Positions 3,001 to 6,000 of a stretch of DNA of 23,432 nt are shown here, piece by piece. The DNA comes from Escherichia coli (GTDB lineage Bacteria; Pseudomonadota; Gammaproteobacteria; Enterobacterales; Enterobacteriaceae). How positions within the stretch are numbered: the stretch's first letter is position 1; each line of letters opens with the position of its first letter. The stretch lies in NCBI RefSeq assembly GCF_003334785.1, contig NZ_QOWV01000031.1; one strand, given 5' to 3'. A program made the position numbers.

Positions 3001-6000
3001 AATGCCAAACAAGCGGCTGAAGCACAGGGTAAAGAGGGGCACGGTTGCAACCACTACGGCGGCGATGCCGGAAGGAACATTTTGATGCTCGGCAACCGTC
3101 ACCATGCCATTACCGACAGCCAGCAATAACAGGCCAATCAGCGCGGCATTGAGCAGCGGACGTAGCGGGGGGAGCTTGTGTCCGCGCAGTAGCAAAAATG
3201 CCAGCAATATAATACCGGCTGCCAGGAATCGAACGCCCGCCATCATTAATGGAGGCCAGCTTTCCACGCCAATCCGAATGACAAAATAGGTTGAGCCCCA
3301 AATGATATACAACGCAAACAGCGCGCCAAAAAGCGGTAATAACTGGCGGAAACGCATAATCCCTCACGGTGGAAATAAAAAGGTGGTTCATAGTAAACGT
3401 GAAAATCATTCTGCTGGCGAGAGATATAATTGCACTTGATTGTTAAAAAAATGTTGACCTGTGAAGCAAGTATCAGAGCTGCCGTTTTTGCTTCATACTT
3501 ACACCCTTCAACAATAAAAATGAGAGGGAATGCTTTTGGCCGGGAGTAGTTTACTGACGTTGCTCGATGATATCGCCACACTGCTGGACGATATCTCCGT
3601 GATGGGCAAACTGGCGGCGAAGAAAACCGCCGGTGTATTAGGGGATGACTTATCGCTCAATGCGCAACAAGTTTCAGGTGTGCGGGCCAACCGGGAACTT
3701 CCCGTGGTCTGGGGCGTGGCGAAAGGATCGCTGATTAATAAAGTGATTCTGGTGCCGCTGGCGCTGATCATCAGTGCGTTTATCCCGTGGGCGATTACGC
3801 CTCTGTTGATGATTGGTGGCGCGTTTCTCTGCTTTGAAGGGGTAGAGAAAGTGCTGCATATGCTGGAGGCGCGTAAACATAAAGAAGATCCGGCGCAGAG
3901 TCAGCAGCGTCTGGAGAAGCTGGCGGCGCAGGATCCGCTGAAGTTTGAAAAGGACAAAATAAAAGGGGCAATTCGTACCGATTTTATATTGTCTGCGGAA
4001 ATCGTCGCCATCACGCTGGGGATTGTGGCCGAAGCGCCGTTGCTTAATCAGGTGCTGGTGCTTTCAGGCATCGCGCTGGTAGTGACCGTGGGCGTCTACG
4101 GTCTGGTAGGGGTTATCGTTAAGATTGATGACCTGGGGTATTGGCTGGCGGAAAAATCCAGCGCGCTGATGCAGGCATTAGGTAAAGGGTTATTGATCAT
4201 TGCGCCCTGGCTGATGAAAGCGTTATCGATTGTCGGCACGCTGGCGATGTTCCTCGTCGGCGGTGGGATTGTGGTACATGGAATTGCGCCGCTGCATCAC
4301 GCCATTGAACATTTCGCCGGGCAGCAAAGTGCAGTGGTGGCGATGATATTACCGACTGTTTTAAATCTGATTCTTGGATTTATCATCGGCGGCATCGTGG
4401 TGCTGGGAGTGAAAGCCGTAGCGAAAATACGCGGTCAGGCACATTAATACTCGCACAGGCTATTATGCAAAATTCGCTATCTTCAACTAAGGTGAACAAG
4501 TTTCACTCGAAAAAAGGAGGCGAGTATGAGCTTTATGGTTAGTGAGGAAGTTACGGTTAAAGAGGGCGGCCCGCGGATGATTGTCACTGGATACTCCAGC
4601 GGTATGGTTGAGTGTCGTTGGTATGACGGTTACGGGGTCAAGCGGGAAGCTTTTCATGAAACCGAGCTTGTTCCGGGGGAGGGGAGTCGTTCTGCGGAAG
4701 AAGTTTGAAAGGGTATCATTAAGACCAGGCCGGATCACATCCGGCCTGGTGTGCCAATGCCTGCAATGAATGATAGTCGCGTCTTATCATGCCACCATTA
4801 TAAAATTATCGCTGTTTTGCGGTACGCTATCGCCAGGTTCTGCTTATGCCAGAATCATAAAAAAGCAGGTTGGGAGTCGTCAGGGTGCAGCACGAGACAA
4901 AAATGGAAAACCAGAGCTGGTTGAAAAAACTCGCACGCCGCCTGGGGCCTGGTCATGTCGTTAATCTCTGCTTTATCGTGGTATTGCTTTTTTCCACCTT
5001 GCTCACCTGGCGTGAAGTGGTGGTGCTGGAAGATGCCTATATCTCCAGCCAGCGTAATCATCTGGAAAACGTTGCCAACGCGCTCGATAAGCATTTGCAG
5101 TATAACGTCGACAAACTGATCTTTTTGCGTAATGGCATGCGCGAAGCTCTCATAGCGCCACTGGATTTCACCTCTCTGCGTGATGCTGTAACCGAGTTCG
5201 AACAGCATCGCGACGAGCACGCCTGGCAAATTGAACTCAACCGACGGCGCACTCTGCCAGTTAATGGTGTGTCGGATGCATTAGTCAGCGAGGGGAATCT
5301 CCTGTCTCGCGAAAATGAAAGCCTCGACAATGAAATTACCGCTGCGCTGGAAGTTGGTTACTTGCTGCGACTGGCGCACAACTCCTCGTCGATGGTTGAA
5401 CAGGCGATGTATGTCTCGCGTGCCGGATTTTACGTTTCGACGCAGCCGACCTTATTTACGCGCAATGTACCAACGCGTTATTACGGCTATGTCACCCAAC
5501 CCTGGTTTATCGGCCATTCGCAACGAGAAAATCGTCACCGCGCGGTACGCTGGTTCACTTCGCAACCGGAACACGCCAGCAATACTGAACCGCAGGTTAC
5601 CGTCAGTGTTCCGGTAGACAGTAATAACTACTGGTATGGCGTGCTGGGGATGAGTATTCCCGTGCGTACCATGCAGCAATTTTTAAGAAACGCCATCGAT
5701 AAAAACCTCGATGGTGAGTATCAGCTCTATGACAGTAAGCTGAGGTTATTGACCTCTTCCAATCCTGACCATCCAACAGGGAATATTTTTGATCCTCGTG
5801 AACTGGCCTTGCTGGCGCAGGCAATGGAACATGACACACGGGGCGGCATTCGTATGAACAGTCGCTATGTTAGCTGGGAACGTCTGGACCATTTCGACGG
5901 TGTGCTGGTGCGCGTCCATACGCTAAGCGAAGGCGTGCGCGGCGATTTCGGTAGTATCAGCATTGCATTAACCCTGCTGTGGGCGCTCTTTACCACCATG

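What the first reader, a model, noticed from the sequence alone, without database searches (positions are those of the whole stretch)
4725..4749. Perfect 11-bp inverted repeat between yodC and dgcQ
CCAGGCCGGAT-cac-ATCCGGCCTGG forms a very stable hairpin without a following T-run. It looks like a REP-type element or an RNA stability or processing element rather than an intrinsic terminator, and it lies about 135 bp upstream of dgcQ.
Basis: seen in the sequence. Interest (0 to 1): 0.2.

Follow-up and report, generated by a model that had tools for sequence, protein, structure and literature searches.

The report
Decayed REP hairpin after yodC
The perfect hairpin between yodC and dgcQ is the shrunken remnant of an ordinary E. 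coli REP repeat that took the place of yodC's ancestral terminator; it is a routine feature, not a new kind of element.

Summary
Window 4724-4750 is a perfect 12-bp inverted repeat with a 3-nt loop. It starts 15 nt after the yodC stop and ends 134 nt before the dgcQ GTG. Neither strand has a T-run after it. The RNA folds at -24.3 kcal/mol.

Comparison with other genomes shows what it is. In 55 of 74 non-Escherichia Enterobacteriaceae, yodC is followed by a classic hairpin-plus-T-run terminator. All six other Escherichia species examined have two full-length REPs there instead: an inverted Y-type and a Z-type, i.e. a BIME. So do 1215 of 5426 complete E. coli genomes. The window carries the majority E. 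coli allele (4147 genomes). In it the Y REP has lost its central 13 nt, which leaves the hairpin, and the Z REP has lost 11 nt of its 5' half (4771-4796).

The hairpin no longer meets the REP definition: it has no GTAG, no stem bulge, and occurs at one locus only. Its function is inferred, not shown. It most likely acts as REPs do, as a 3' exonuclease barrier for yodC mRNA and a weak attenuator before dgcQ. It could equally be a neutral relic. One published Term-seq study lists no 3' end here. Interest is low.

The parts
4526..4708 (+). yodC coding sequence (60 aa, stop TGA at 4706-4708). The hairpin lies in its 3' untranslated region.
   Evidence: ORF list. RefSeq annotation of the 100% identical strain 14EC029. 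Orthologues found in 80 enterobacterial species.
4724..4750 (+). The hairpin: arms 4724-4735 and 4739-4750 (12 bp, perfect), loop CAC at 4736-4738. It is an internally deleted Y-type REP in inverted orientation that keeps only the outer REP stem GCCGGAT/ATCCGGC plus a lineage-specific outer extension.
   Evidence: Alignment with full-length REPs at the orthologous position.
4751..4770 (+). Linker between the two REP remnants (GTGCCAATGCCTGCAATGAA). It aligns with the BIME linker of other Escherichia.
   Evidence: Alignment.
4771..4796 (+). Remnant of the partner Z-type REP. It has lost 11 nt (CCTGATGCGAC) of its 5' half. The 3' half GTCGCGTCTTATCATGCC and a degraded CTAC tail (ACC) remain.
   Evidence: Alignment with TGCCTGATGCGACGCTGTCGCGTCTTATCATGCCTAC in MLI110, E. 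whittamii and others. It is the only match to the Z-REP tail motif in the window.
4725..4729 (.). Dcm methylation site CCAGG inside the left arm. A second site, CCTGG, lies at 4745-4749 in the right arm.
   Evidence: Read directly from the sequence. The Dcm site CCWGG is established knowledge. dcm and vsr are in the same window.
4797..4884 (+). Conserved dgcQ upstream block, the presumed promoter and 5' UTR. It is downstream of and separate from the REP remnants. This strain has a 6-bp insertion at 4840-4845.
   Evidence: The block is conserved across Escherichia. Part of it (GTTATGCCAGRAT) is conserved in Citrobacter and Salmonella.
4885..6579 (+). dgcQ (yedQ) diguanylate cyclase, the downstream gene in the same orientation.

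Best explanation
The hairpin is an internally deleted, immobilised Y-type REP (palindromic unit). It is the first half of a decayed two-REP BIME. Shown: in the genus Escherichia a REP pair occupies the site where other enterobacteria have yodC's intrinsic terminator, and within E. coli the commonest allele has lost the inner stem-loop of REP1 (13 nt) and the 5' half of REP2 (11 nt). What remains of REP1 is its outer stem GCCGGAT/ATCCGGC. That stem was lengthened by changes in the right flank into a perfect 12-14-bp hairpin. Inferred: the hairpin is transcribed as part of the yodC 3' UTR and works like other REPs between same-direction genes. It would block 3'-to-5' exonucleases, so the yodC segment outlives downstream RNA, and it would modestly attenuate read-through into dgcQ. 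Because the structure begins 13-15 nt after the stop codon, it may also slightly hinder ribosomes terminating on yodC. It can no longer be mobilised by the REP transposase. My confidence in the origin is about 0.9. My confidence in the RNA function is about 0.4.
For: Origin. The alignment of the yodC-dgcQ spacer shows a full 35-nt Y REP plus a Z REP at this exact position in E. albertii, E. whittamii and four other Escherichia species representatives. The same long form is present in 1215 E. coli genomes. The short form is in 4147 genomes, and together they account for all but one of the 5363 genomes that carry the full locus. An intermediate allele, L089, exists. The long copies match genuine REPs from K-12 malE-malF. 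Of 74 non-Escherichia species, 55 have a perfect hairpin followed by at least four T, in 51 of them within 12 nt of the yodC stop, and none has a REP. All 6 Escherichia have the REP and no terminator.

Structure. The fold is -24.3 kcal/mol with z = -6.2. Pairing is kept across alleles: 90% of cells are paired, against 32-38% when the partners are slid. Five pairs changed on both sides, for example GGCC/GGCC to GACC/GGTC and CCAG/CTGG to CCCG/CGGG, and 7 of 500 shuffles reach the observed covariation score. The two one-sided variants, in K-12 and in B20123, are G.U wobbles on the sense transcript.

Function by analogy. [quoted passage not shown]
Against: No transcript data support a role. The uncut Term-seq tables of Adams et al. 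2021 list no 3' end at K-12 2,028,120-2,028,179 and have no yodC entry. Their table of Rho termination regions has nothing in this spacer. The SMRT-Cappable-seq and TERMITe supplements do not mention yodC. Harris et al. find that REP effects depend on context, are weaker for less canonical REPs, and do not raise mRNA half-life overall. The two-sided stem changes could come from template-switch correction of quasipalindromes during replication rather than from selection (PMC7202029, PMC8794818, PMC5941160). In particular, the right-flank change GC-TGTTGTG to GCCTGGTGTG is a multi-base event that perfects the palindrome in one step. yodC RNA is G-rich, so it has no obvious Rho loading site.
Confidence: 0.7

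Rival explanations
1. It is a neutral relic. The hairpin is only what is left of a decaying REP pair and does nothing for yodC or dgcQ. Its perfect pairing is kept and extended by template-switch correction of palindromes during replication, not by selection.
For: The locus is highly polymorphic in length within E. coli, with short, long and intermediate alleles, and between Escherichia species, which carry 2 or 4 REPs. REP4 of E69 and E. whittamii is also internally deleted. This pattern suggests weak constraint. No 3' end is mapped here. The change that perfected the stem is a clustered multi-base event typical of template switching (PMC7202029 and PMC8794818).
Against: In all 11 distinct alleles examined (short and long, across seven Escherichia lineages) the core helix stays paired, with no disrupted variant. 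Both one-sided variants keep G.U pairing on the sense strand. The ancestral terminator is gone, so something must limit or tolerate read-through into dgcQ.
Confidence: 0.35
2. It is a non-canonical intrinsic terminator. The very stable hairpin stops RNA polymerase without a U-tract and so replaces the lost ancestral yodC terminator.
For: It sits where 55 of 74 related species have a true terminator. The stem is GC-rich and stable.
Against: There is no T-run on either strand. No 3' end is listed in the Term-seq tables. A U-tract is a defining requirement for efficient intrinsic termination (established knowledge; PMC6061677 abstract).
Confidence: 0.08
3. It is a translational damper of yodC. 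Because the stem begins 13-15 nt after the stop codon, a terminating ribosome collides with it and YodC output falls, as reported for REPs fewer than 16 nt from a stop. This can coexist with the best explanation.
For: The distance measured here is 15 nt in the window and 13 nt in the majority allele with its 14-bp stem. The rule is stated in PMC12306157, which cites the original study. The canonical REP stem started about 20 nt from the stop, and the E. coli-specific outer extension brought the structure inside the limit.
Against: The distance is right at the threshold. The published effect was measured with full REPs. The original paper could not be read here. There are no data for yodC.
Confidence: 0.15
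4. It is a DNA-level site: a palindromic operator for a dimeric regulator of dgcQ, or a Dcm-methylation or cruciform signal.
For: It is a perfect palindrome upstream of dgcQ, and its arms carry two Dcm sites.
Against: The arm sequences differ between alleles while pairing is kept. The long allele inserts 13 nt at the centre, which would wreck any half-site spacing. The Dcm sites are absent from the long allele and halved in K-12. The conserved dgcQ upstream block begins only at about 4797.
Confidence: 0.04

Closest known systems
E. coli Y-type REP / palindromic unit (group-2 REP recognised by TnpA_REP/RAYT)
   Same: It lies at the position of full Y REPs in sister species and in 22% of E. coli. 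It keeps the outer REP stem GCCGGAT/ATCCGGC, the extragenic position after a gene, and a partner Z REP remnant in opposite orientation.
   Different: It has lost the inner stem-loop (13 nt). It has no GTAG head (CCAG instead) and no stem bulge. It is 25-27 nt long and occurs at a single locus, so it should not be a substrate for the REP transposase.
BIME (REP plus inverted REP with a linker), e.g. malE-malF and REP325 in yjdM-yjdN
   Same: It sits between two genes transcribed in the same direction, like malE-malF and yjdM-yjdN, where REPs stabilise the upstream mRNA and attenuate transcription downstream.
   Different: Both REPs are truncated here. No effect on transcript or protein has been measured for yodC-dgcQ.
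Rho-independent terminator of yodC in Citrobacter, Salmonella, Enterobacter, Kosakonia and others
   Same: It is at the same position relative to the yodC stop and is a GC-rich stem-loop.
   Different: The sequences are unrelated (ancestral AACGCCCGG...CCGGGCGTTTT), and the hairpin has no U-tract.
Other GCCGGAT-loop-ATCCGGC mini hairpins in K-12 (yjbB/pepE, ubiA/plsB, hpt/can)
   Same: They have the same 7-bp arm core and a short loop, and all lie in 3' regions. Two of the three sit beside full REPs. There are 4 in 256 kb, against about 0.01 expected by chance.
   Different: Their flanks differ, so this is a shared motif rather than a copy family. The ubiA one has A/T runs like a true terminator. 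REP ancestry was demonstrated only for the yodC one.

Membership tests
REP (E. coli Y-type palindromic unit) | An imperfect palindrome of about 35 nt matching the Y consensus (GCCGGATGCGGCGTGAACGCCTTATCCGGCCTAC) | tested here: not met
   The window has no match to the consensus at up to 3 mismatches and no match to the Y-core regex. Only the outer arms remain. Real Y REPs from K-12 are shown for comparison.
REP (E. coli Y-type palindromic unit) | A conserved GTAG tetranucleotide next to the palindrome (PMC8266576) | tested here: not met
   The head reads CCAG (4725-4728) where the inverted REP should read GTAG.
REP (E. coli Y-type palindromic unit) | A bulge of two conserved mismatches in the stem, required for TnpA_REP activity (PMC8266576) | tested here: not met
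   The 12-bp stem is perfect, with no irregularity.
REP (E. coli Y-type palindromic unit) | Many copies per genome | tested here: not met
   The 43-nt query hits one locus per genome in 4147 genomes. The second 'place' is the palindrome matching its own opposite strand. As a positive control, a REP-containing query gives a median of 4 and up to 10 places per genome.
REP (E. coli Y-type palindromic unit) | Descent from a REP copy (orthology to full-length REPs) | tested here: met
   Full Y REPs are at the aligned position in six Escherichia species and in 1215 E. coli genomes.
BIME | Two REPs in opposite orientation separated by a short linker, in an extragenic position | tested here: inconclusive
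   The arrangement and linker are preserved (4724-4750, 4751-4770, 4771-4796), but both units are truncated. The intact form is present in the long allele and in the outgroups.
Intrinsic (Rho-independent) terminator | A GC-rich hairpin immediately followed by a U-tract | tested here: not met
   The hairpin is present, but the tail is GTGCCAAT on the + strand and CTTAATGA on the - strand. The scan finds 0 sites.
Intrinsic (Rho-independent) terminator | An RNA 3' end mapped at the base of the stem | tested here: inconclusive
   There is no 3' end in K-12 2,028,120-2,028,179 in the Adams et al. 2021 tables.
[quoted passage not shown] | The structure starts 15 nt or less downstream of the stop codon | tested here: met
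   There are 15 nt between the TGA (4706-4708) and A4724. The distance is 13 nt in the majority allele, whose stem is 14 bp. The effect on translation cannot be tested with these tools.

The most novel reading that the evidence does not exclude
The REP pair did not merely land here. It took over the job of yodC's lost intrinsic terminator, and its stepwise decay (4 REPs, then 2 REPs, then a mini hairpin plus half a REP) created alleles that set different levels of read-through from yodC into dgcQ. On this reading, natural E. coli lineages (76% short allele, 22% long) differ in basal c-di-GMP and cellulose signalling because of a non-coding REP polymorphism. More broadly, GCCGGAT-loop-ATCCGGC mini hairpins would be a common, unrecognised end state of REP decay that keeps a 3'-UTR function.
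Probability: 0.12. Interest if true: 0.4.

Novelty: new member of a known kind. Interest (0 to 1): 0.15.

Why it matters
The main value is that it settles the finding: the striking perfect palindrome is a worn-down REP, not a new regulatory element. It has modest wider interest as a clean example of a REP pair replacing an intrinsic terminator at the base of a genus and then decaying by internal deletion into a minimal perfect hairpin. Both states still segregate in E. coli upstream of a c-di-GMP cyclase gene. That offers a natural allele series for testing what REP hairpins of different lengths do to neighbouring genes.

Tried and rejected
- Rfam found nothing credible at the hairpin. The best match was E = 0.48 to an unrelated Aggregatibacter sRNA, far below its gathering score.
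- The RefSeq feature tables served by the tool list no REP features even at malE-malF, so the missing annotation at yodC-dgcQ says nothing.
- I looked for experimental transcript ends. Dar & Sorek 2018 and Choe 2022 have no supplements held. The TERMITe and SMRT-Cappable-seq supplements do not mention yodC. Adams 2021 has no 3' end at the site. Thomason 2015 and Liang 2015 are not held.
- Literature searches for yodC or yedQ promoters returned nothing useful.
- The consensus promoter scan found no sigma-70 site for dgcQ between the hairpin and the start codon.
- The terminator scanner missed the obvious Salmonella terminator because its stem extends into the A/T runs. I therefore wrote my own counter.
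- I tested whether two other mini hairpins (hpt/can, yjbB/pepE) also have long REP alleles in E. coli. They do not: both are essentially fixed in length. REP ancestry is therefore shown only for the yodC hairpin.
- The idea of a protein operator or Dcm signal was rejected because the arm sequence varies while pairing is kept, and because of the 13-nt central insertion in the long allele.

Full report
**1. Observation**

The window is E. coli. Positions 4440-4900 are 100% identical to strain 14EC029. The whole window corresponds to NZ_CP024141.1 2,016,879-2,040,310. The genes around the finding all lie on the + strand:
- yedI, 3530-4447
- yodC, 4526-4708
- dgcQ, 4885-6579

The perfect repeat is in fact 12 bp, at 4724-4735 and 4739-4750. 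It starts 15 nt after the yodC stop codon. Position 4749 lies 135 nt before the dgcQ GTG.

Neither strand has a T-run after the stem, and the terminator scan finds nothing in 4300-5100. As RNA the hairpin folds at -24.3 kcal/mol, with z = -6.2 against shuffles. It is the longest perfect hairpin in the window. Only 4 of 200 dinucleotide shuffles of the window contain a perfect stem of 12 bp or more.

**2. What it is**

*Variation within E. coli.* The locus is present in 5363 of 5426 complete genomes, in two main forms.
- The short form, which is the hairpin, is in 4147 genomes. It occurs at one locus per genome. The second 'place' that BLAST reports is the palindrome matching its own opposite strand.
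- A long form is in 1215 genomes. In strain MLI110 the hairpin position reads CCCGACCGGATGTGGCGCTCACGTCGCATCCGGTCGGG. It is followed by TGCCTGATGCGACGCTATCGCGTCTTATCATGCCTAC and then a further half copy.
- An intermediate allele with just the two full units also exists (L089).

These long units match bona fide REPs. The K-12 malE-malF spacer contains TGCCGGATGCGGCGTGAACGCCTTGTCCGGCCTAC (Y type) and GTAGGCCTGATAAGACGCGTCAGCGTCGCATCAGGCA (Z type). Several more Y copies turn up in a 49-kb K-12 sample.

*Variation between species.* I fetched the yodC locus from 80 GTDB species representatives.
- Of 74 non-Escherichia species (Citrobacter, Salmonella, Enterobacter, Kosakonia, Phytobacter, Trabulsiella and others), 55 have a perfect GC-rich hairpin followed by at least four T after the stop. 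A typical example is AAAACGCCCGG-loop-CCGGGCGTTTT. In 51 of the 55 the stem starts within 12 nt of the stop. None of the 74 has a REP there.
- All six non-coli Escherichia representatives lack that terminator. They carry an inverted Y REP plus a Z REP at the aligned position. E69 and E. whittamii carry the pair twice. The six are E. albertii, E. whittamii, MOD1-EC7003, E1V33, SCPM-O-B-8794 and E69.

The order of events follows from this. A BIME replaced the ancestral yodC terminator in the Escherichia lineage. Within E. coli, REP1 then lost its central 13 nt and acquired one substitution, or alternatively suffered two smaller deletions. REP2 lost 11 nt of its 5' half. REP2 survives in the window as 4771-4796, TG + ATAGTCGCGTCTTATCATGCCACC.

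The hairpin is therefore the outer REP stem GCCGGAT/ATCCGGC. The extra outer pairs (CACCAG/CTGGTG) arose only in E. coli and its closest relative MOD1-EC7003, through a change in the right flank from GC-TGTTGTG to GCCTGGTGTG.

**3. Does it still qualify as a REP?**

PMC8266576 defines E. coli REPs by these features:
- a 20-50-nt palindrome preceded by GTAG
- a bulge of two mismatches in the stem, required by the TnpA_REP transposase
- about 600 copies per genome
- frequent pairing into BIMEs

The window's hairpin reads CCAG instead of GTAG. It has a perfect stem, is 25-27 nt long and is single-copy. It fails the family definition while clearly descending from a member, so I file it as a REP remnant and not as an active REP.

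A looser class does recur. In 256 kb of K-12 there are four GCCGGAT-N0-9-ATCCGGC mini hairpins, at yjbB/pepE, ubiA/plsB, hpt/can and yodC/dgcQ. Chance would give about 0.01. All lie in 3' regions, and two sit next to full REPs. For hpt/can and yjbB/pepE I found no long alleles within E. coli. REP ancestry is therefore demonstrated only at yodC.

**4. Evidence on constraint**

Across 11 distinct alleles, 90% of stem cells form pairs. When the 3' partners are slid by 1-3 columns the figure falls to 32-38%. Five pairs changed on both sides, for example G-C to A-T and A-T to C-G in the outer stem. Only 7 of 500 shuffles reach the observed covariation score. The two one-sided variants seen are C to T in the left arm of K-12 and C to T in the right arm of B20123. 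Both give G.U wobbles on the sense transcript but A.C mismatches on the antisense.

This is suggestive, but it comes from few events. Palindromes can also be perfected by template switching during replication, without any selection (PMC7202029, PMC8794818, PMC5941160). The clustered right-flank change looks like exactly that kind of event.

**5. How it most likely works**

This section is inference. REPs between same-direction genes act as barriers to 3' exonucleases and as partial attenuators. REP325 is a partly Rho-dependent terminator that also stabilises the upstream yjdM mRNA. [quoted passage not shown] These effects depend on context and are weaker for less canonical REPs (bioRxiv 10.64898/2026.03.23.713779).

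Escherichia has no terminator after yodC, so transcripts from yodC presumably run toward dgcQ. The hairpin is then the only strong structure that could define a stable yodC 3' end or damp read-through.

REPs fewer than 16 nt from a stop codon have been reported to lower translation (stated in PMC12306157). The stem here begins 15 nt after the stop, and 13 nt in the majority allele with its 14-bp stem. A small effect on YodC synthesis is therefore possible.

Against a strong role:
- The uncut Term-seq tables of Adams et al. 2021 list no 3' end within K-12 2,028,120-2,028,179.
- Those tables have no yodC entry.
- Their table of Rho termination regions has nothing in this spacer.
- yodC RNA is G-rich, with no obvious Rho loading site.

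I could not reach any other transcript-end or start-site data. I put the REP-remnant origin at about 0.9, an RNA-level function at about 0.4, and a neutral relic at about 0.35.

**6. Rivals considered**

- Non-canonical intrinsic terminator: unlikely, because there is no U-tract and no mapped 3' end.
- DNA operator or Dcm signal: unlikely. The arm sequences vary while pairing is kept. The long allele has 13 extra nt at the centre. The Dcm sites (CCAGG 4725-4729, CCTGG 4745-4749) are missing from the long allele and only one remains in K-12.

**7. Verdict**

Its function remains untested. This is an ordinary feature of E. coli intergenic DNA with a tidy evolutionary history. It is of low interest apart from the natural short/long allele series upstream of dgcQ.

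Noticed in passing
window 4840-4845: There is a 6-bp insertion (CTGCTT) inside the conserved dgcQ upstream block (CGCCAGGTT^ATGCCAGAATCAT). 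It is absent from K-12, str10, MLI110 and every other Escherichia examined. Only 28 of 5365 genomes are at least 99% identical to the window over 4440-4900. The surrounding motif GTTATGCCAGRAT is conserved as far as Citrobacter and Salmonella, so the insertion may alter the dgcQ promoter or 5' UTR.
   Followed up: partly
window 4725-4729 and 4745-4749; dcm 579-1997, vsr 1978-2448: Both hairpin arms are Dcm sites (CCWGG), and the dcm-vsr genes lie about 3 kb upstream in the same window. K-12 keeps only one of the two sites and the long REP allele has none, so this is probably coincidence.
   Followed up: partly
K-12 loci L086:4428-4446, L086:28902-28919, L093:41978-41998: Three further mini hairpins with the REP outer arms GCCGGAT/ATCCGGC and short loops lie in the 3' regions of yjbB/pepE, ubiA/plsB and hpt/can. 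Counting the yodC one, that is 4 in a 256-kb sample against about 0.01 expected by chance. The hpt/can copy is fixed, with no length variants, in 5425 genomes.
   Followed up: partly
L010 (E69) and L012 (E. whittamii), about 1680-1950: These species carry the yodC-dgcQ BIME in duplicate (four REPs). Their fourth REP is itself internally deleted (GCCTGATGCGTCTTATCATGG and GCCTGATGCCTCGTATCATGCC), so internal deletion of REPs has happened more than once at this locus.
   Followed up: no
window 7589-7675 (+): The DsrA small RNA is present (Rfam RF00014, 102.5 bits) between yedP and yodD but is not annotated in the RefSeq record of strain 14EC029. Its terminator is the 10-bp perfect hairpin at 7649-7673.
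   Followed up: yes
window 8279-8304: A perfect 11-bp hairpin, CTGACTGGTGG-gaaa-CCACCAGTCAG, lies between the convergent genes dsrB and rcsA. It is probably a shared terminator.
   Followed up: no
window 20547-23432: emrE, ybcL and ybcM sit next to fliE, followed by an IS200/IS605 tnpA pseudogene at the window edge. From my own knowledge, not checked here, these genes lie in the DLP12 prophage region in K-12, so this looks like a strain-specific island.
   Followed up: no
window 4883-4854 (- strand): A sigma-70-like match (CTGACG, 18-nt spacer, TATGAT; 9 of 12) points leftward from the start of dgcQ toward the hairpin and antisense to yodC. The same match is present in K-12. It is a consensus match only.
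   Followed up: no
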